Translations under genes and position numbers: made by a program
Assembly (NCBI GenBank): GCA_000004985.1
Contig: GG738865.1
DNA length: 64,000 nucleotides
Direction: 5' to 3' (one strand)
Origin: Naegleria gruberi
Taxonomy: Eukaryota
Shown: in pieces, positions 41,689-48,835 of the stretch
Position numbering within the stretch: the stretch's first letter is position 1
Layout of the letters: every line of letters starts with the position of its first letter
The notes under the pieces: model-generated
The model's input: the letters and a program-made list of their open reading frames with translations, nothing else
The model's database searches: none
What the model was told of the DNA's origin: nothing

Positions 41689-43509
41689 TCATTGGTCTTC
41701 AGTTTGAAAGTTAAAGTTGTGAGCTTTGATTCTATCGGTCAGTCGAATGCTATCTTGTACGAAATTAATTGGATGAAGCATGTGTAAGTGGAAAATAAGG
41801 TCAGTACCCTTGTCTGGCATTTCTGATGGATCGAAACAAGTTGTGATGAAGGTCAGATACTTTTCTACTTGATCCTGGATCCAATCATTGGTTTCCTCTA
41901 AAGAGGGCATGCATTCGCTCAGCTCTACAACATGTTCCTTGAGGAATGCAATTGAATTGCATGGTTTTTCAAAGGAATTCATCAAGTCTGATTTGACAAT
42001 ACTAAAATTGAAATCCTCATTCTTAATTGGTGTTGCAATTAGTTCCAAAAAATCCATTTTTAAATCTGGGGGAAGTAAATGACTTGTTCTGACCTTATCT
42101 GAGTGTTGCTTTCTATTATTTAGTAATTTCCTCATGTCAATATCCGAAAGTTTGAATAGATTTTCCTGTTCAATATAATAATTATCAAGGAGTATCAAAT
42201 GTAGGCCAATTAATATATCATCTTCGACCAATAATTCATTGCAAGGAAGTTGTGGCAAGATATTTTCCATGAAATAGTTTGCCTTTTCTATCATTTTCAA
42301 CATGCATTTGTGAATCCATTCGAGTTCTTGGGGGTCCAACTGTTTGCTTATTTGAGGAGAAACTCTATTGGCAACTGATTTTAAAAATTCAATATAGAGA
42401 GGAATGGTATTTTCAAAATCAACTGAAAGTTCATTCTTTAAAATTGGCTTTTTCACACAAAATAGGCACTTCTCAAAGAGTTTCAATAGACTAGAGTCTC
42501 TTTTAAACTCTAAACAATGATCAGCATGTGGAATATAGGTATCAATTGTATGTGGTAAACAATTCACGGAAACTAGAATCTTCTTTGTTTGAATTTTGGC
42601 TAATCTTTGCATGAGAATGTGTTGTTCTGGAAGAAATCTCAAATTTTGCAATGGGTCAAAGTTCAAAATCATGAAAAAGAAAGTCTTGTCCTCAGCAGAT
42701 GCAAGCCGGTTAAACTCTTCAATAATTCTTTCTCCAAATAACTCAAATTGGAACATTCCACAAACAAAATATGTCTGCAACCAATCAAGGTCATACCACT
42801 GATTTAACTTTCTTAAGGAATCACTCTCATCTTTGAAATAACTCAATGTTCTACTCATAAATATCTGATTGACAGTATTAGAATCGTATAAAATTATCTT
42901 ATGCCACTTTGAACTAACAAATGAACATTTTTCAATGAGAAATTTGGTATCAATAAACTCAAATATCAAAGCCAACACATGATCTTCGATTGTCAATTTA
43001 AACTTCTTGTCATTTTCACCTGCAATTGATTTCTTCTGACTACTGTATGCAGCACCCTTCCAGATTATATCAATAATTTGCAAAGGATCAAGATAACGGT
43101 CATAAATAGCTTCCAAATCAATATCTATTGAGAGAATATCATTATCCATTCGTGGCACAATTGCTTTATAAGAATTGTCAGCAGAGTTGTGTAATTCAAT
43201 CGAAGTGAATGTCATTTTCATTTCTTCGACACTGTCAAATGTTGCAAATCTCTCTCCATCAACAATTTTCGAATCTCTCATATAGGGTGATTGTTCATCA
43301 TCTATTTCAATGTCTTCACTTGTTTCTCCTCCAACCGAAAGAAAGAGAAAATTATCTAGAGGACTCACATAAGAATCACATGTTGTTGATAATTTAGTAG
43401 GAATTTTGTGATTGAATAACCATTGATCGATGAGTGATGTGGCATTTAAAAATGTTCCTTCTCTGTCATCGTTGAAATCATACCATCCTCCCTCTCCATC
43501 ACACGGCAT
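41689..43509 (-). CDS. Hypothetical protein (606 aa) with an internal F-box-like motif
   Basis: Single ORF. LALIFEFIDTKFLIEKCSFVSSKWHKII resembles an F-box. The rest is unassigned. Confidence 0.5.
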   Translation of the reverse strand: MPCDGEGGWYDFNDDREGTFLNATSLIDQWLFNHKIPTKLSTTCDSYVSPLDNFLFLSVGGETSEDIEIDDEQSPYMRDSKIVDGERFATFDSVEEMKMTFTSIELHNSADNSYKAIVPRMDNDILSIDIDLEAIYDRYLDPLQIIDIIWKGAAYSSQKKSIAGENDKKFKLTIEDHVLALIFEFIDTKFLIEKCSFVSSKWHKIILYDSNTVNQIFMSRTLSYFKDESDSLRKLNQWYDLDWLQTYFVCGMFQFELFGERIIEEFNRLASAEDKTFFFMILNFDPLQNLRFLPEQHILMQRLAKIQTKKILVSVNCLPHTIDTYIPHADHCLEFKRDSSLLKLFEKCLFCVKKPILKNELSVDFENTIPLYIEFLKSVANRVSPQISKQLDPQELEWIHKCMLKMIEKANYFMENILPQLPCNELLVEDDILIGLHLILLDNYYIEQENLFKLSDIDMRKLLNNRKQHSDKVRTSHLLPPDLKMDFLELIATPIKNEDFNFSIVKSDLMNSFEKPCNSIAFLKEHVVELSECMPSLEETNDWIQDQVEKYLTFITTCFDPSEMPDKGTDLIFHLHMLHPINFVQDSIRLTDRIKAHNFNFQTEDQ

Positions 43510-44889
43510 TTTTTTTTATTTGTGAAAATGTATTGTAATAGTCCAGTTTATGAAGTAATGGGATCAATTTCGGGTATGCATTTCGGATCAAATCAGAATT
43601 GCACCAATGTGAGAATTGTAATCATCATCAAGGACTCCTTAGTTGAGTAGGAATCATAGATGGTTGAAAAACAATTAATCTATTGGAAGTAATGAATTGT
43701 TCATCCTTAAACACTGTATCAACCCATCTAGATGTATGCGTTTCGCTAATTGTTAGAAATATCTAAACTGTAACTGAGTTCAATTGGTGAGTATTATTTA
43801 TTTCAATGCGGATCTTGAGGGTGAGGCTTAATTATCATGTTGTTGAATCGATTGTTAGGTGTAACGAGTATTGCTTGTTGAAGATGTTCAATGTCAATAC
43901 TGTTACTGCAGTCGGTACGTAAATTCAATATATATATTCTGATGATTTTATTTCTAATTGTATAGAATGTCCACCTGCTGCTTGCTCTCTTTTTAAGGGT
44001 GAACGGATTAATTTGAAGAGTTGTGAATGTATAATGTTTTTAGATCAAATTACTGTTCCTGCTCTCCTTACTGTTGTCAATCCATCTAAGAATATTGGAT
44101 CTCTTTCCATGAAAGTTGGAGGTGATGAATTCTCCTCAGCTCTGGTTCCAATGGATTTGTCAATACTATTCCTCTCCAAGTTGCACACAAAAACCTCATT
44201 CTTCTCAATAATGGATCTCGAATAGTTCAATTGGGAACTATCCAGGAAGTCCAACTATTTGGTTATGTTGTTAGTGGTAAAACTCCTGTTATTTGAAAGA
44301 AATAGTTCCATTAATTTGGAACCATTGGAAAGTGCAATAAGAGCAACCACTGCAAGTTATGAAGAATTCAATTTCTGTCCATCTGCTCCAGGTAAAATAA
44401 TGATGTATTATTCTTCATTTACTCTTTCCATTCCTTTCAGCGACACAACTTGTAAACGATCTGGAAAAACAAACTATATGGGTGCTAATGTTTATATGGT
44501 TAATGTTTCCAATCTTAAAGGTGGCACTATTGAGGTATCTGATATGGTATATTAATAAACCAGTACATACCAAGTTATTATTCTACAACTTTAAAGAATA
44601 TAGTACTACAACCTTGCTAATATAATATTTTAAAGTTGAGTGGCAGCTTTGCTTCCTGGCTTGATGGTTGCTTTGCCAGGAGCAATTTTTTAAAACATTC
44701 AATTTACTGCGTGACAATTCAATTCTCAATCTTTAATAATGAGATTTAAATAAAAACAAAAGAACTGCTGTTATGGAAATAAGGCAACACCAGTCTTTCC
44801 TTTTTGAAAAATTTAGACAAATGACGTTACACTGCGGTGACAAGTAGAACTTTTAAAAAAAAATAGCTATTCACAACATTCATCAAGAA

Positions 44890-46551
44890 ATGGGTGGAAG
44901 TGGTAAGTTTCATCATCCACTATCGAAACTAAACTAAACTAAAGTTTCTAGATCAGATCTTGGTTTAAAACCATGGTTTATGCTTTACGAAATCGAAGAA
45001 AATTTAAGTACGGGAGACATTGTTTTATTTTCAACAAGATCCATACCCGGAAGAACATTCAGACATTGCACAGAATCTAAATATTGTCACGTAGGAATAA
45101 TTGTTAAACTGCCAAAATCTGACAAATCAAATTATGGAAACTCTGAGAATAGTAATATATTAAACACAACAGGAATGAAACAACCACCAACAGCAGAACA
45201 TGTCTATGTATTAGAAGCACAAGTTGATTATGATGGATTATTAGAAATTGCAAAATCAGCTGCTTCCGATTCAACCTCTACAAGTCAACAAGCTGCAATC
45301 AATTTTAAAGTTAAAACTTGGGCAAGTTTACAAAGATTGAGCTCAAAATTATATAGTGGATATTATGATTTAGTTTCGGTTAGAAAGTTGAAATATTTAC
45401 ATGGAAAGAAAGGTGCTGATAAAATTCAAGAAGAATTAATGGATTTATTATTTACTAGAGATTCTAATAATTCAGCAACTGAAGAGGGAAAGATTTCGAA
45501 TATTCTTGAGAATGGTATTTCATTTACAATTCATCCACATTATTTCCAAAACTTTTTTAGAGATTCATTGTTTGAGAATGGTTTAATTTATGCTTCTCCA
45601 GTTGAGGATCGTCAAATTATTGTGAGTGCTTATTTCACCGCTTTTATTTATCAGAGATTGGGAATTTTTGATATGGAAAACAAATCACTCATTACAAAAT
45701 TCACACCATTCCATTTTTCTGAAGATTCCACTTACAAATTACCTTTCAACAAGTCATTTGTAATGGGTTTGGAAAGTCCAATGTACATTTATTTGGATTA
45801 TGAAGTATTTGCTGATCAGGTGAAAGTGGAAAACAAACCTCTTCCGCTTCCTGTAACTGATTTTCCAATTGTTGATAAAATTGTGAGAGAGAGAATGACA
45901 TTTAATGAGTCAATTCTTGGTACATTGAGATCTGGTGATTTGATTTTTACTCAGGAGGAATCATCTGTTGGAAAGGCAATAAGAAGAGCTTGGAATGGTT
46001 CAGTATTCTCTAGAGTGGGTGTTATCATTAGAATTCAAGGTCAACACTTTGTTTATGACATAGCTCCATATTATGTGAGTCAGGAGGAAGCCAAAATACC
46101 TCAAACAAAGATTTTAGAAGGAAGAATTCAATCATTACACTCCTATATTCACTCAACTCCATTCACTAAAGTAACTGTGAGAAAATTAGAAAATGAAGGA
46201 ACCAATGTTTCTGTCAGAATGCAAGAAAAACGTGTTCATGTAGCTCTAGAATTCCAACAAACATTGGAATGTCCACTCAATAAGAAGATTCGTGAAGTTT
46301 TTGATAATATTGATGCTAACAGTTATATTCCAAGAATTAGATTTGATATTTCAGGAGTTTTCTCATGTGTATTTGTATTACTAATGCTCAAACAATTGAG
46401 ATTAATTAATGTGAGTGATGAACCAGCTGATCTTTTATCTTACACTCCTCAGAGTATTCTTGATTTTAAGAAATTGAATGGTGATTACAAATTAACTGAT
46501 GAATTAACTGTATTGAATGCCTTTGTTACAACTGGTAACCATAAAGTTTGA
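44890..46551 (+). CDS. Protein with two tandem permuted-papain-fold (YiiX/DUF830/NlpC-P60-like) domains, preceded by a 13-nt first exon encoding MGGS; join(44890..44902,44957..46551)
   Basis: Repeat 1 GDIVLFSTRSIPGRTFRHCTESKYCHVGIIVKLP...EHVYVLEAQ. Repeat 2 GDLIFTQEESSVGKAIRRAWNGSVFSRVGVIIRI. Upstream ATGGGTGGAAGTG|GTAAGT, then a 54-nt intron ending ...GATCAG, joins in frame (MGGSDLGLKPWFMLYEIEE...). This is the only phase-compatible splice found. The single-exon alternative starts at ATG 44980. Confidence 0.5.
44926..44943. repeat. (AAACT)3 microsatellite inside the proposed first intron
   Basis: aaactaaactaaactaaa seen directly. Confidence 0.5.
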
Positions 46552-46660
46552 GTTATTTGACTCTAAATGTTAACTCTCAAAATCTTTGTTGTTCTTTTAA
46601 AGTCATGAATAAAATTTTCGCGCCAAAATTGTATTATTCAAAAAAACACAAGTAAAAAAA

Positions 46661-48835
46661 ATGGTTTCATCACCTGCCATGATCGACCCACCTTCACCAA
46701 CACAAAATGATACACAGAGTAGTGTATCACAATTTCCGGAGGAGCCCGAATGGTTGAAAACAAGACAGTTTTTAACGCATGATTTTTTAAAAAAGCAAAC
46801 AGGTGAATTGAATGTTGCTCAGGGTTTTTCTCTTGAATCACTCCCATCAAAAGTACAGGAATATATTATTATTGAAGAATTATTAAATTGTTTGATGGGA
46901 TTTGAAGGAAAATATATTAGATGTGTTTCACAAATTGAAACCGATCAAGATTCGTATATGACCACTGAAGAAGGTCTTCCGATCACTGATATCACATTAT
47001 TGGAAACTTACAAATATTCTCTTCTTTGTGAAATCGACTCTTCACTCCATGATATGGTAAATAGAATATTACCACTTTGTGAAAAACATACAAGAGTGTC
47101 TAGTTTTTTGGAAAAAAGATCGGGTTATGGTAATGGTCTTGTTTGTCAGGCATTTTGCTCGGCACTGAGAGCTTTGGAAAAGGAATACCTTATGTTTATT
47201 AATCAATTGGATTTACTCTTCAAACAAGATCAAATATCTCTACAAAAATTATACTATCACCTTCAAACAGGTGCTTGGAAAACAATTGAAATTTTGGATA
47301 GATTGGTTGGAGAAATATTGAAGGATAATGCAAAAGGAGGTTCTTTATTGAATGTGCTTCAAAATGTTTCCAGAGTAATTAGTTCAGATGAGAAAACTCA
47401 AAAGTTATTCAATTTTATTTTTACCAAATCGTGTGCTCCCTATTTTGAAATGATAGAGTCGTGGATTTTTAAGGGTGAAATTGAGGATTTATACGAAGAA
47501 TTTTTCGTAGAAGAAAATAAGAATGTAAGAAAGGAACAGCTACTTGAAGATTTTAACTCATTATATTGGGATTCCAAATACTCCATAACACGAGAGGTGC
47601 CATTCTTCTTAACAAAGCTTAGTGATAAGGTTTTAACTTGTGGTAAATATTTGAGTTTACTCAAAGAATGTGGCCAGCGAGTGGATAAACGTATTGTAGA
47701 TAGAATTAATTTTGCTGATGGGAAAGCAATATCAATAATTGAAGAAGCTCACAATCATGCTGCCAAGCAAGTTTTGGATTACTTCTTTGGAGATGTCAAA
47801 GTAATGGATCGTTTAAAGTCCATTAAGTATTATTTTTTATTCGATCATGGTGACTTTTTCGTGCACTTTATGGACACAGCAGAACAAGAGAATGAACTTG
47901 CCAAGAAGAGTACGGATGTTTCGTTATCGAAACTTCAATCCTCGATAGAATTTGCTGCCAAAACTTGCTCGATACCCAACGACGAATATAAGGATAATCT
48001 CACCTGTAGTTTGAAACCTATGAATTTGGCCAACTTTTTAAGTATTATCAAACAGCTTTCCTCATCCAACAGACTGGATGCAGCAGTGCTAGAACAGCAA
48101 CAATTACAAGAATCTCCAATTGAGGGCTATGAAGCATTCTGTTTAGAATATAAGGCAGAGTGGCCAATGTCTCTCATCATCAATAGGAAGAATATTACCA
48201 AATATCAAATTTTATTCAGACACTTATTCTGCTTTAAGTATGCAGAAAGATGCCTCTGTAATACTTGGATTAATCACAAATTTTCAAAGGAGCTGAAATT
48301 GGGGACATCCTTCTCAACATTTTATGCATTAAGGCACAAGATGATACATTTCATTCAACACTTTTTATCATATGCTCTCATAGAAGTTGTTGAAAAGAAT
48401 TGGGTAGAAATGGAAAAGAAAATCAAAACAGCAACAAGTATAGATGAAGTTATCAAGAGTCACGATCAATTTTTGGATTCTTCACTGAATGGCTGTTTAG
48501 TTTCTTCCACTGATGCCTTCAAGTGCTTGACCAAGCTTGTATCTTGTTGCAACAGTTTTTCAAAATACATGAATCAATTCTCCACTGTAATTAGTAATAA
48601 TTTGAATGAAGATGTTCAGGAATCAGATGAACTAACAGATAAATTCGAAAGAAGACGTGAAAGAATAGAACAAGCATCTGAACTGGCTAAAAACACAGTC
48701 CAAGATGACAATTATAGACGAGCCATTTTAAAATTCACCCAAGTATTCGAGACAACCCTTAATCAACTCAGATCTCATACAGCTCACATTTTTACATTAT
48801 CCATGAGTTTTGACAAGGAATCAACTCACTATTAA
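46661..48835 (+). CDS. Gamma-tubulin complex component (Spc97/Spc98/GCP family, GCP2-like), 724 aa, single exon
   Basis: Conserved GCP N-terminal grip region (QEYIIIEELLNCLMGFEGKYI) and C-terminal grip (DYFFGDVKVMDRLKSIKYYFLFDHGDFFVHFMD...). The length and architecture are typical of the family. Confidence 0.8.
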   Translation: MVSSPAMIDPPSPTQNDTQSSVSQFPEEPEWLKTRQFLTHDFLKKQTGELNVAQGFSLESLPSKVQEYIIIEELLNCLMGFEGKYIRCVSQIETDQDSYMTTEEGLPITDITLLETYKYSLLCEIDSSLHDMVNRILPLCEKHTRVSSFLEKRSGYGNGLVCQAFCSALRALEKEYLMFINQLDLLFKQDQISLQKLYYHLQTGAWKTIEILDRLVGEILKDNAKGGSLLNVLQNVSRVISSDEKTQKLFNFIFTKSCAPYFEMIESWIFKGEIEDLYEEFFVEENKNVRKEQLLEDFNSLYWDSKYSITREVPFFLTKLSDKVLTCGKYLSLLKECGQRVDKRIVDRINFADGKAISIIEEAHNHAAKQVLDYFFGDVKVMDRLKSIKYYFLFDHGDFFVHFMDTAEQENELAKKSTDVSLSKLQSSIEFAAKTCSIPNDEYKDNLTCSLKPMNLANFLSIIKQLSSSNRLDAAVLEQQQLQESPIEGYEAFCLEYKAEWPMSLIINRKNITKYQILFRHLFCFKYAERCLCNTWINHKFSKELKLGTSFSTFYALRHKMIHFIQHFLSYALIEVVEKNWVEMEKKIKTATSIDEVIKSHDQFLDSSLNGCLVSSTDAFKCLTKLVSCCNSFSKYMNQFSTVISNNLNEDVQESDELTDKFERRRERIEQASELAKNTVQDDNYRRAILKFTQVFETTLNQLRSHTAHIFTLSMSFDKESTHY

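What the first reader, a model, noticed from the sequence alone, without database searches (positions are those of the whole stretch)
44890..46551. Tandem permuted-papain-fold (YiiX/DUF830-like) protein with a 13-nt MGGS first exon
Two internal repeats each show the GD[IL][IV]LF...G...H[VC]G[IV]I[VI] pattern of permuted NlpC/P60-type cysteine peptidase or acyltransferase folds, which are mostly bacterial. The ORF stays open upstream of its first internal ATG. The only phase-compatible splice joins it to a 13-nt exon ATGGGTGGAAGTG that encodes MGGS, a plausible N-myristoylation start. This looks like a membrane-anchored lipid or peptide hydrolase of unknown function.
Basis: partly seen in the sequence, partly recalled or inferred. 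Interest (0 to 1): 0.55.

Follow-up and report, generated by a model that had tools for sequence, protein, structure and literature searches.

The report
Tandem cysteine-less YiiX-like protein, Naegleria

Summary
The window is Naegleria gruberi. The ORF 44980-46551 is the hypothetical protein NAEGRDRAFT_88171 (523 aa).

**First exon: supported.** Four species share an ATG-GG start, a phase-1 intron and the peptide V[SD]RSDLGLKPW[YF].

**Splice site: corrected.** A second in-frame acceptor exists at AG 44943-44, giving a 42-nt intron. It yields MGGSVSRSDLG..., matching the orthologues through synonymous codon changes, and it fits the MGxxxS myristoylation motif.

**Catalytic residues: not as implied.** The nucleophile position is Ser in both domains (15/16 and 15/15 family members). 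Domain 1 keeps His and Glu. Domain 2 has Arg where the His should be.

The family is rare (about 20 cluster representatives among 1.84 billion); every named member is heterolobosean, and no searchable paper names this protein. Likely role: a membrane-tethered module that binds or processes fatty-acyl lipids. Whether it is catalytic is unresolved. I rate it a new variant of a known kind, of moderate interest.

The parts
44890..44902 (+). Exon 1, 13 nt: ATG GGT GGA AGT G (Met-Gly-Gly-Ser plus the first base of the next codon), phase 1.
   Evidence: Sequence. It is the first ATG after the in-frame TAA at 44854-56. The homologous GGAAGTG|GTAAGT junction occurs in N. fowleri and N. lovaniensis, and an equivalent MG exon occurs in metagenome locus L003.
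44903..44944 (+). Preferred intron, 42 nt: GTAAGT...CTAAAC CTAAAC CTAAAG. TAG 44949-51 is out of frame.
   Evidence: Five of eight other candidate ORF-joining introns in this window are 38-56 nt, some with AAG acceptors. The intron at the same position is 50 nt in L003, 160 nt in N. fowleri and 174 nt in N. lovaniensis.
44926..44943 (+). (AAACT)x3.6 microsatellite inside the intron. It creates three tandem branch-point-like CTAAAC/CTAAAG motifs just before the acceptors.
   Evidence: Tandem Repeats Finder; sequence.
44945..46551 (+). Exon 2 (preferred start) through the TGA stop. Spliced product is 539 aa: MGGSVSRSDLGLKPWF followed by the 523-aa database protein.
   Evidence: The ORF is 100% identical to NAEGRDRAFT_88171 from 44980 onward.
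44945..44979 (+). Coding stretch upstream of the annotated Met: (V)SRSDLGLKPWF. It contains the family-wide motif [LI]G[LIV]xPW.
   Evidence: There is no ATG in this stretch. Over 13 codons against N. lovaniensis there are 6 synonymous and 1 non-synonymous codon differences; the pattern is similar against N. fowleri and L003. The motif is present in Willaertia, Acrasis and metagenomic relatives.
44980..45750 (+). Domain 1 (database residues 1-257): YiiX-like permuted NlpC/P60 domain. It has a disordered low-complexity insert at residues 50-71 (45127-45192).
45088..45090 (+). Domain 1 His37 (CAC), at the catalytic His position. Its partner acid is Glu79 at 45214-45216.
   Evidence: Aligned to His49/Glu64 of 3kw0 and 2if6. 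His is present in 9 of 11 genuine family rows and Glu in 10 of 12.
45625..45627 (+). Domain 1 Ser216 (AGT), at the position of the catalytic Cys (family 'VSAE/Y' against canonical 'FCSE'). It lies at the N-terminus of helix 216-227.
   Evidence: hhalign register. The model helix starts at residue 216. The Cys of 3KW0 sits at a helix N-terminus. Family counts are Ser 15, Cys 1.
45916..46509 (+). Domain 2 (database residues 313-510): second, degenerate YiiX-like domain.
46012..46014 (+). Domain 2 Arg345 (AGA), at the catalytic His position. Asp360 (46057-59) is at the acid position and Ser462 (46363-65) is at the Cys position.
   Evidence: for the alignment register. Counts: Arg 16/18 (one His, one Leu); Asp 15/18; Ser 15/15. 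The neighbouring Cys463 is not conserved (C4, G7, A3, V1).

Best explanation
This is a two-exon N. gruberi gene: exon 1 at 44890-44902, a 42-nt intron, and exon 2 at 44945-46551. It encodes a 539-aa cytosolic protein whose N-terminus, MGGSVSRS..., is probably N-myristoylated, tethering it to a membrane.

The body is a compact pair of tandemly duplicated YaeF/YiiX-type permuted NlpC/P60 domains. This clade handles fatty-acyl groups in a hydrophobic pocket. Both domains have lost the thiol nucleophile (Cys to Ser).

- Domain 1 keeps a Ser216-His37-Glu79 arrangement. I take it as the working site: most likely a serine-type acyl hydrolase or transferase acting on a membrane lipid or lipidated substrate, or at least an acyl-chain binding site.
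- Domain 2 (Ser462-Arg345-Asp360) cannot do Cys/His chemistry. I take it as a conserved non-catalytic ligand-binding or regulatory partner, as often follows duplication of a dimeric enzyme.

Shown: gene identity, fold, internal duplication, residue replacements, the conserved MG start and the intron position. Inferred: which acceptor is used, myristoylation, membrane location, lipid substrate and any catalysis.
For: Gene model:
- Orthologues start MGNNVGGSV[SD]RSDLGLKPWY behind the same phase-1 intron.
- N. gruberi encodes VSRSDLGLKPWF in frame with mostly synonymous differences, and only a splice can supply a start codon.
- Short introns of 38-56 nt with AAG acceptors look normal in this window.

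Myristoylation:
- Gly2 is present in all 11 informative N-termini although residues 3-9 vary.
- 8 of 11 family N-termini, including the corrected N. gruberi one, pass PROSITE PS00008.

Fold and homology:
- NCBIfam YiiX model E 3.9e-13.
- Family profile hits PDB 3kw0 and 2if6.
- hhalign E 2.8e-30, 5.8e-20 and 4.7e-17.
- pTM 0.86 indicates one compact two-domain unit.

Pocket residues are conserved over sequences only 22-32% identical outside the Naegleria/Willaertia clade.

Lipid link:
- YiiX binds a fatty acid, and permuted NlpC/P60 enzymes target acyl linkages (PMC3142127; PMC12994826).
- One family member is fused to a phospholipase-D domain, and related single-domain proteins are fused to C2 domains.

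Ser or Cys only at the domain 1 nucleophile position (15 Ser, 1 Cys) is compatible with a retained nucleophile.
Against: - There is no transcript evidence for either acceptor. Neither the 535-aa nor the 539-aa product is in the 15-billion-protein collection.
- All NlpC/P60 families are thought to need an invariant Cys/His dyad (PMC13559823).
- The Cys-to-Ser mutant of the related PLAAT3 is catalytically dead yet still binds membranes (PMC12017856).
- Ser is equally invariant in domain 2, which has no His, so its conservation may be structural (helix capping) rather than catalytic.
- The oxyanion Tyr could not be located. Y188 is Lys in most relatives.
- Two members (P0006, P0013) lack the domain 1 His.
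- Pfam PF05708 scores below its gathering threshold (21 against 27 bits).
- The presence of NMT in Naegleria was not checked.
Confidence: 0.45

Rival explanations
1. Pure pseudoenzyme. Both domains are catalytically dead, and the protein acts only as a myristoyl-anchored lipid- or acyl-chain-binding adaptor or scaffold, or as a regulator of another enzyme.
For: - Both domains lack Cys, and domain 2 lacks His.
- PLAAT3 C113S is inactive but still membrane-binding.
- The Cys/His dyad is regarded as invariant for activity in this superfamily.
- The PLD-fused member P0013 has lost His, Glu, Arg and Asp in both pockets yet keeps the module.
- The candidate oxyanion Tyr is not conserved.
- From my own knowledge, not tested here: Ser-for-Cys papain-like proteins such as Plasmodium SERA5 are generally held to be non-catalytic.
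Against: - Domain 1 retains exactly the ancestral His and Glu in most members across deep divergence.
- The nucleophile position admits only Ser or Cys.
- Ser-His-Glu triads are competent in other hydrolase folds (general knowledge).
Confidence: 0.38
2. One reading: acceptor CAG 44954-56, a 54-nt intron and the N-terminus MGGSDLG.... Alternatively, both acceptors are used as alternative 3' splice sites 12 nt apart.
For: It is in frame and gives a full-length 535-aa product. CAG is a classically stronger acceptor than AAG. Three tandem branch-like motifs lie upstream.
Against: - The 12 nt it would remove encode VSRS, identical to N. lovaniensis and L003, through different codons (AGA against CGA or AGG; TCA against AGT).
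- The resulting N-terminus has Leu at position 6 and fails the myristoylation pattern that most relatives pass.
- AAG acceptors occur in other candidate introns of this window.
Confidence: 0.15
3. The database model is right. Translation starts at Met 44980, and the upstream ATG-GG exon is a relic or part of the 5'-UTR.
For: The public annotation (EFC44983.1 / XP_002677727.1) starts there. The ENA gene call for L003 also starts at the internal Met.
Against: - The 12 codons before that Met are conserved at protein level with synonymous changes in four species.
- The exon 1 to intron junction is conserved.
- Distant relatives start MG...[LI]G.xPW.
- The L003 call came from a caller that does not model introns.
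Confidence: 0.04
4. A canonical cysteine peptidase or amidase of bacterial type, as the Pfam name 'Peptidase_C92' would suggest. A neighbouring cysteine (Cys36 or Cys463) might serve as the nucleophile.
For: Homology to Peptidase_C92 / YiiX. Cys36 sits next to His37 and Cys463 next to Ser462 in Naegleria.
Against: - Cys36 and Cys463 are not conserved outside Naegleria and Willaertia.
- The true nucleophile column is Ser.
- Domain 2 lacks His.
- The gene has a spliceosomal intron and a conserved MG start, and its only named relatives are eukaryotic.
Confidence: 0.02

Closest known systems
[quoted passage not shown]
   Same: - Same circularly permuted fold: GD strand, then His, then acid, then a C-terminal nucleophile helix.
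- They are the best, and the only significant, structural matches for both domains.
- Profile homology extends over the whole domain.
- His and Glu are aligned in domain 1.
   Different: - Those are single-domain, mostly bacterial proteins with a strictly conserved Cys/His/Glu/Tyr set.
- Here two domains lie in tandem in a eukaryotic, intron-bearing gene with an MG start.
- Cys is replaced by Ser in both domains, His by Arg in domain 2, and no clear Tyr was found.
- Pfam and NCBIfam scores fall below the curated cut-offs.
LRAT / PLAAT (H-RAS-like suppressor) family of eukaryotic permuted NlpC/P60 phospholipases and acyltransferases
   Same: - Eukaryotic, membrane-associated, permuted NlpC/P60 proteins that act on lipid acyl groups.
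- The idea of an anchor plus an acyl-handling domain is shared.
   Different: - PLAATs are anchored by a C-terminal helix rather than an N-terminal myristate, are single-domain, and need the Cys; C113S is inactive.
- The structural and sequence similarity here is much closer to YiiX than to LRAT.
Other permuted NlpC/P60 lipid-targeting proteins: Tox-Act1 and TseH T6SS phospholipases, the MARTX RID N-epsilon-fatty-acyltransferase, and S. aureus LnsA
   Different: All rely on a Cys/His dyad shown by mutagenesis. They are bacterial toxins or envelope enzymes, and none has the tandem Ser-bearing architecture.
Papain-fold pseudoenzymes with Ser or no nucleophile, such as Plasmodium SERA5 and LRATD/FAM84 (recalled from my own knowledge, not tested here)
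   Same: Natural replacement of the catalytic Cys while the fold, and often the His, are retained.
   Different: They belong to different families and architectures. No sequence or structural comparison was made here.

Membership tests
YaeF/YiiX-like permuted NlpC/P60 (Peptidase_C92) | Circularly permuted papain-like alpha/beta fold resembling 2IF6 and 3KW0 | tested here: met
YaeF/YiiX-like permuted NlpC/P60 (Peptidase_C92) | Sequence-profile membership at curated thresholds (Pfam PF05708 gathering score; NCBIfam PRK10030 equivalog cut-off) | tested here: not met
   PF05708 scores 21.0 bits against a cut-off of 27. PRK10030 scores 49.4 bits against 216, although its E-value is 3.9e-13. Homology is nevertheless clear from hhalign, E 2.8e-30 and 5.8e-20.
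YaeF/YiiX-like permuted NlpC/P60 (Peptidase_C92) | Conserved GD motif on strand beta-1 | tested here: met
   G12-D13 are present in 11/11 rows and G319-D320 in 18/18 rows.
YaeF/YiiX-like permuted NlpC/P60 (Peptidase_C92) | Catalytic His (S-H-x-G) and a following acidic residue | tested here: inconclusive
   Domain 1 meets it: His37 and Glu79 align to His49 and Glu64 of the solved structures. Domain 2 does not: Arg345 replaces the His, although Asp360 is kept.
YaeF/YiiX-like permuted NlpC/P60 (Peptidase_C92) | Catalytic Cys at the N-terminus of the C-terminal helix (motif F-C-S-E) | tested here: not met
   Ser216 (family 'VSAE') and Ser462 ('FSC' / 'LSG') occupy the Cys column. Counts are Ser 15 and Cys 1 in domain 1, and Ser 15/15 in domain 2.
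YaeF/YiiX-like permuted NlpC/P60 (Peptidase_C92) | Conserved oxyanion Tyr about 13 residues before the Cys | tested here: inconclusive
   This region aligns with low confidence. The candidate Tyr188 is Lys in 10 of 16 relatives. A profile of this region finds no PDB match.
YaeF/YiiX-like permuted NlpC/P60 (Peptidase_C92) | Hydrophobic S1 pocket that binds a fatty acyl chain | not testable with these tools
   The feature is known for YiiX and BcPPNE (PMC3142127). Testing it here needs model coordinates or an experiment.
N-myristoylated proteins (NMT substrates) | Gly at position 2 after the initiator Met | tested here: met
   The spliced N. gruberi product starts MG. All 11 informative family N-termini start MG.
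N-myristoylated proteins (NMT substrates) | Consensus MGxxx[S/T/A/G/C/N], not followed by Pro (PROSITE PS00008; MGXXXS/T as in PMC4990929) | tested here: met
MGGSVSRS (acceptor 44944) passes. 8 of 11 family N-termini pass.
N-myristoylated proteins (NMT substrates) | NMT present in the organism, and the protein actually acylated | not tested
   NMT is near-universal in eukaryotes (general knowledge). No Naegleria NMT was looked up, and paper searches found nothing specific.
Spliceosomal intron (gene-model correction) | GT-AG boundaries, frame restoration, and conserved position and phase in orthologues | tested here: met
   The boundaries are GTAAGT...AG. The intron is phase 1 at the same codon in N. 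fowleri, N. lovaniensis and L003. The unspliced reading stops after 15 codons.
Spliceosomal intron (gene-model correction) | Transcript evidence for the junction | not testable with these tools
   No RNA data were available.

The most novel reading that the evidence does not exclude
The family may be a naturally evolved serine-nucleophile (Ser-His-Glu) version of the permuted NlpC/P60 fold. That superfamily is currently described as having an invariant Cys/His dyad. On this reading, domain 1 works as a myristoyl-anchored lipid acyl hydrolase or transferase. Its duplicated partner domain has turned the old active site into a Ser-Arg-Asp ligand-binding pocket. The protein would be specific to Heterolobosea, including the pathogen N. 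fowleri.
Probability: 0.3. Interest if true: 0.6.

Novelty: new variant of a known kind. Interest (0 to 1): 0.4.

Why it matters
- It corrects a public gene model. NAEGRDRAFT_88171 lacks its first exon and 16 N-terminal residues, including the probable lipidation site. It also shows how micro-exons of 13-25 nt are missed in Naegleria annotation.
- It defines a small, apparently heterolobosean family, present in the brain-eating amoeba N. fowleri and not found in animals by an exhaustive profile search.
- In this family a lipid-handling bacterial-type domain was duplicated and its thiol nucleophile replaced by Ser in both copies.
- If domain 1 is active, it would be a new catalytic type in the NlpC/P60 superfamily and a lineage-specific membrane enzyme. 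If it is not, it is a clean example of a tandem pseudoenzyme whose pockets remain under selection.
- Either way, the result is a modest advance rather than a surprise.

Tried and rejected
**Searches that found nothing useful**
- Single-sequence phmmer against the PDB found nothing.
- BLASTP of the two halves was not significant.
- A four-sequence profile aligned only 37 residues between the halves. The deeper family alignment was needed.
- A profile of the C-terminal half of domain 1 found no PDB sequence. The Cys-column assignment therefore rests on hhalign against Cys-bearing YiiX-like sequences and on the helix start in the model.
- A second word-indexed homologue search with the family profile returned only the four close orthologues.
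- Rfam found nothing in 43400-46700.
- Paper searches for the accession numbers and for Naegleria NMT or myristoylation gave nothing specific.

- The afdb50 fold library was not available.
- The spliced protein could not be looked up on contigs.
- P0001 is not on record in the contig index.
- Exact look-ups of the 535-, 537- and 539-aa versions found nothing.

**Ideas considered and rejected**
- TAG 44949-51 as acceptor: it causes a frameshift and a stop after 9 codons.
- Cys36 or Cys463 as nucleophile: neither is conserved.
- A bacterial contaminant or recent horizontal transfer: the gene has an intron, an MG start and eukaryotic neighbours (a GCP gene downstream).
- A secreted peptidoglycan hydrolase: no signal-like N-terminus is evident by eye, and the match is to the permuted lipid-type clade.
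Full report
**1. What the window is and what the locus is**

The window is AT-rich (about 33% G+C). The ORF 44980-46551 (+) translates to a 523-aa protein that is 100% identical to the hypothetical protein NAEGRDRAFT_88171 of Naegleria gruberi (EFC44983.1 / XP_002677727.1).

Close orthologues are:
- N. lovaniensis (P0002, 554 aa);
- N. fowleri (P0003, 552 aa);
- an ENA metagenome protein (P0004, 527 aa).

The downstream gene (46661-48835) is a gamma-tubulin complex component. The upstream minus-strand ORF (41689-43509) has no Pfam match. No searchable paper mentions the protein.

**2. Checking the observation: the 5' end**

The frame of the ORF is open upstream of its first ATG, back to the TAA at 44935-37, and contains no ATG in that stretch. 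ATGGGTGGAAGTG sits at 44890-44902, followed by GTAAGT, and is the first ATG after an in-frame TAA at 44854-56. Read without splicing, it stops after 15 codons.

The N. fowleri and N. lovaniensis proteins begin MGNNVGGSV[SD]RSDLGLKPWYMLYEIE. Their DNA shows exon 1 as ATGGGCAACAACGTTGG[CT]GGAAGTG, then GTAAGT or GTATGT, then an intron of 160 or 174 nt, then exon 2.

In the metagenome relative L003, the gene caller started at the internal Met. The same structure is nevertheless present: ATGGGAGGCGTTCCATCATCTG | GTATGT...TGCTAAC...TTCAG | TCTCAAGGAGTGATCTTGG, a 50-nt intron giving MGGVPSSVSRSDLGLKPWY.

So four species share an MG start, a phase-1 intron at the homologous codon, and the peptide V[SD]RSDLGLKPW[YF] ahead of the Met that the N. 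gruberi database model uses.

**3. The acceptor: a correction**

In fact there are two:

| Acceptor | Exon 2 start | Intron | Product |
|---|---|---|---|
| AG 44943-44 | 44945 | 42 nt | MGGSVSRSDLGLKPWF..., 539 aa |
| TAG 44949-51 | 44952 | 49 nt | out of frame |

The DNA alignment places N. gruberi CTAAAG|TTTCTAGATCAGATCTTGG opposite N. lovaniensis ATAAAAG|TCTCTCGAAGTGATCTCGG. The 12 nt in dispute encode V-S-R-S exactly as in N. lovaniensis and L003, but with different codons: AGA against CGA or AGG for Arg, and TCA against AGT for Ser.

Over the 13 codons up to the internal Met, N. gruberi differs from N. lovaniensis at 6 codons synonymously and at 1 non-synonymously. The figures are 7 and 2 against N. 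fowleri, and 5 and 1 against L003. That is the signature of coding sequence, so exon 2 most likely begins at 44945.

A 42-nt intron is short against the published N. gruberi mean of 203 bp. However, 30 bp was used as the minimum intron length when mapping N. fowleri reads (PMC8296547). A heuristic scan of this window for GTA[AT]GT introns that join long ORFs gave eight candidates. Five of them are 38-56 nt, and several have AAG or TAG acceptors.

The intron carries an (AAACT)x3.6 repeat that creates three branch-point-like CTAAAC motifs. The first lies about 11 nt before AG 44944, similar to the 13-nt spacing of TGCTAAC in L003. Use of both acceptors cannot be excluded without RNA data.

**4. 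The N-terminus**

With the preferred splice, the N-terminus is MGGSVSRS. It fits MGxxxS/T and PROSITE PS00008.

More tellingly, every informative N-terminus in the wider family starts MG, while the next seven or so residues vary:

| Source | N-terminus |
|---|---|
| Willaertia | MGNKETVA |
| Acrasis | MGNSAASG |
| Metagenomic members | MGNTQDRE, MGQRVERM, MGQRLAPS, MGLSLTST |
| P0006 (behind an over-extended gene call) | MGNKVATI |

Eight of eleven pass the PROSITE pattern.

Selection on Gly2 is best explained by N-myristoylation. This is an inference. I did not verify an NMT gene in Naegleria, and no lipidation data exist. There is no nearby Cys for palmitoylation, so membrane binding through myristate alone would be weak or reversible (general knowledge).

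**5. Fold and internal duplication**

Single-sequence family searches are weak:
- NCBIfam YiiX model PRK10030: E 3.9e-13, but only 49 bits against a 216-bit cut-off.
- Pfam Peptidase_C92: 21 bits against a 27-bit cut-off.
- No PDB hit.

An exhaustive HMM search of 1.84 billion cluster representatives found only 39 proteins at E <= 1e-3, and 16 at E <= 1e-10. These include two-domain relatives of 397-1143 aa, plus about 200-aa single-domain YiiX-like proteins that match only the first 90 profile positions.

With the 20-sequence family alignment (A2):
- The profile hits PDB 3kw0 ('cysteine peptidase' BcPPNE, 5.9e-9) and 2if6 (E. coli YiiX, 9.6e-6).
- AlphaFold2 gives a confident model, pLDDT 82.6 and pTM 0.86.

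Profile-profile comparison (hhalign) gives:

| Comparison | Probability | E-value | Columns |
|---|---|---|---|
| Domain 1 against 14 single-domain YiiX-like sequences | 99.8% | 2.8e-30 | 190 |
| Domain 2 against the same set | 99.2% | 5.8e-20 | 186 |
| Domain 1 against domain 2 | 98.8% | 4.7e-17 | 175 |

The tandem permuted-papain architecture is therefore established. Several of the reference sequences score on Peptidase_C92.

**6. Catalytic residues**

The YiiX-like family is defined by Cys/His/Glu/Tyr: Cys128, His49, Glu64 and Tyr115 in YiiX, with the Cys at the N-terminus of a helix (PMC3142127).

Domain 1:
- His37 and Glu79 align to His and Glu.
- They are kept in 9 of 11 and 10 of 12 genuine family rows. 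One search counts 10 His, but the P0012 row is a misaligned His-rich fragment.
- The Cys column (canonical F-C-S-E-L-V-A) is occupied by Ser216 (family V-S-A-E-Y-V-A). Counts are Ser in 15 and Cys in 1 (P0012).
- Ser216 starts helix 216-227 in the model.

Domain 2:
- The His column is Arg345: 16 of 18, with His only in P0017 and Leu in P0013.
- The acid column is Asp360 (15 of 18).
- The Cys column is Ser462 (15 of 15).
- The adjacent Cys463, which catches the eye in Naegleria, is Gly, Ala or Val elsewhere.

The oxyanion Tyr could not be placed. Tyr188 is Lys in most relatives, and this stretch aligns poorly.

**7. Distribution and fusions**

The named family members are N. gruberi, N. fowleri, N. 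lovaniensis, Willaertia magna and Acrasis kona. All are Heterolobosea. The remaining members are unnamed metagenome or read-archive assemblies. One of these lies on a 69.7-kb eukaryotic contig next to F-box, filamin and RCC1-kinase genes.

One relative (P0013, 1143 aa) fuses the tandem module to a phospholipase-D domain; PLDc_2 and PLDc both score above their cut-offs. That member has lost the His, Glu, Arg and Asp pocket residues. Related single-domain, Cys-bearing proteins are fused to C2 domains (P0034, P0037).

These fusions, the fatty acid bound in YiiX, and the lipid-directed activities of permuted NlpC/P60 enzymes (LRAT/PLAAT, Tox-Act1, TseH, LnsA) all point to membrane lipid or acyl-group biology.

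**8. How it most likely works**

*Shown:* a two-exon gene; a compact tandem YiiX-like protein; Ser at both nucleophile positions; Ser-His-Glu in domain 1 and Ser-Arg-Asp in domain 2; both pockets conserved across sequences only 22-32% identical; a conserved MG start.

*Inferred:*
- The protein is N-myristoylated and works at a membrane.
- Domain 1 binds a fatty-acyl group and may hydrolyse or transfer it through Ser216, His37 and Glu79.
- Domain 2 is a non-catalytic ligand-binding or regulatory partner.

The main rival is that both domains are pseudoenzymes. Points in its favour:
- The superfamily is described as needing an invariant Cys/His dyad.
- PLAAT3 C113S is inactive yet still membrane-binding.
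- Ser is equally invariant in the His-less domain 2, so it may simply cap the helix.
- The PLD fusion keeps the module without its pocket residues.

I put the catalytic reading at about 0.45 and the pseudoenzyme reading at about 0.38. The canonical cysteine peptidase reading is essentially excluded.

**9. Comparison with known families, and novelty**

By fold and profile homology, both domains belong to the YaeF/YiiX clade of permuted NlpC/P60 proteins. Measured against the family's defining catalytic set, they fail on the Cys in both domains and on the His in domain 2. They also fall below the curated Pfam and NCBIfam thresholds.

I found no description of any of the following in the searchable literature:
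- a tandem Ser-bearing architecture;
- its restriction, as far as named members show, to Heterolobosea;
- the conserved MG...[LI]G.xPW N-terminus.

I rate it a new variant of a known kind, with interest 0.4. It offers a useful annotation fix and a tidy case of duplication with loss of the nucleophile. It has modest upside if domain 1 proves to be a serine-type NlpC/P60 enzyme.

Noticed in passing
window 44890-44979: The public N. gruberi model (EFC44983.1 / XP_002677727.1, 523 aa) starts at the internal Met at 44980. It misses a 13-nt first exon and 16 N-terminal residues. Neither the 535-aa nor the 539-aa spliced product exists in the 15-billion-protein collection.
   Followed up: yes
L003 1464-1536: The ENA metagenome orthologue P0004 is likewise called from the internal Met. 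A 22-nt MG exon (1464-1485) and a 50-nt intron with a TGCTAAC branch site precede it.
   Followed up: yes
window 44926-44956: An (AAACT)x3.6 microsatellite creates three tandem branch-point-like CTAAAC motifs. They are followed by three AGs within 13 nt, two of them in frame and 12 nt apart. This could produce isoforms with or without VSRS, or make the splice site evolutionarily labile.
   Followed up: partly
window, both strands (e.g. + 23894, + 35958, + 3047, - 55967, - 51331): A heuristic scan finds eight GTA[AT]GT introns that join long ORFs. Five are only 38-56 nt, often with AAG or TAG acceptors. Very short introns therefore seem common here despite the published mean of 203 bp. The candidates were not validated.
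   Followed up: partly
protein P0013 (JGI metagenome, 1143 aa): A family member fuses the tandem YiiX-like module to a phospholipase-D domain (PLDc_2 and PLDc above cut-off). It has lost the His, Glu, Arg and Asp pocket residues of both domains.
   Followed up: partly
proteins P0034, P0037, P0036: Related Cys-bearing single-domain YiiX-like proteins occur fused to C2 domains (P0034, P0037). P0036 (466 aa) is an independent tandem duplication of a canonical, Cys-bearing YiiX-like domain.
   Followed up: no
proteins P0012 and P0017: There are two exceptions to the family pattern. P0012 has Cys at the domain 1 nucleophile position (LACAEC). P0017 has His at the domain 2 'Arg' position (EYTHVGMVV). 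They may be reversions or retained ancestral states.
   Followed up: no
L001 and L002 compared with window 41689-48835: Gene order is not conserved. In N. fowleri and N. lovaniensis the gene lies between a ubiquitin-domain protein and a dynein heavy chain. In N. gruberi it lies between an orphan 606-aa minus-strand ORF (no Pfam match) and a gamma-tubulin complex (GCP) gene.
   Followed up: partly
window 43510-44889: About 1.4 kb between the upstream minus-strand ORF and exon 1 holds only short ORFs (52-98 aa). Rfam finds no match at gathering threshold. It may be a shared promoter region or an unrecognised intron-rich gene.
   Followed up: partly
L004 3001-3090: The gene call for P0006 carries a 30-residue extension (MARRSIQHQ...) ahead of an internal MGNKVATINIGIGPW. 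By analogy with the rest of the family, the internal MG is probably the true start.
   Followed up: no
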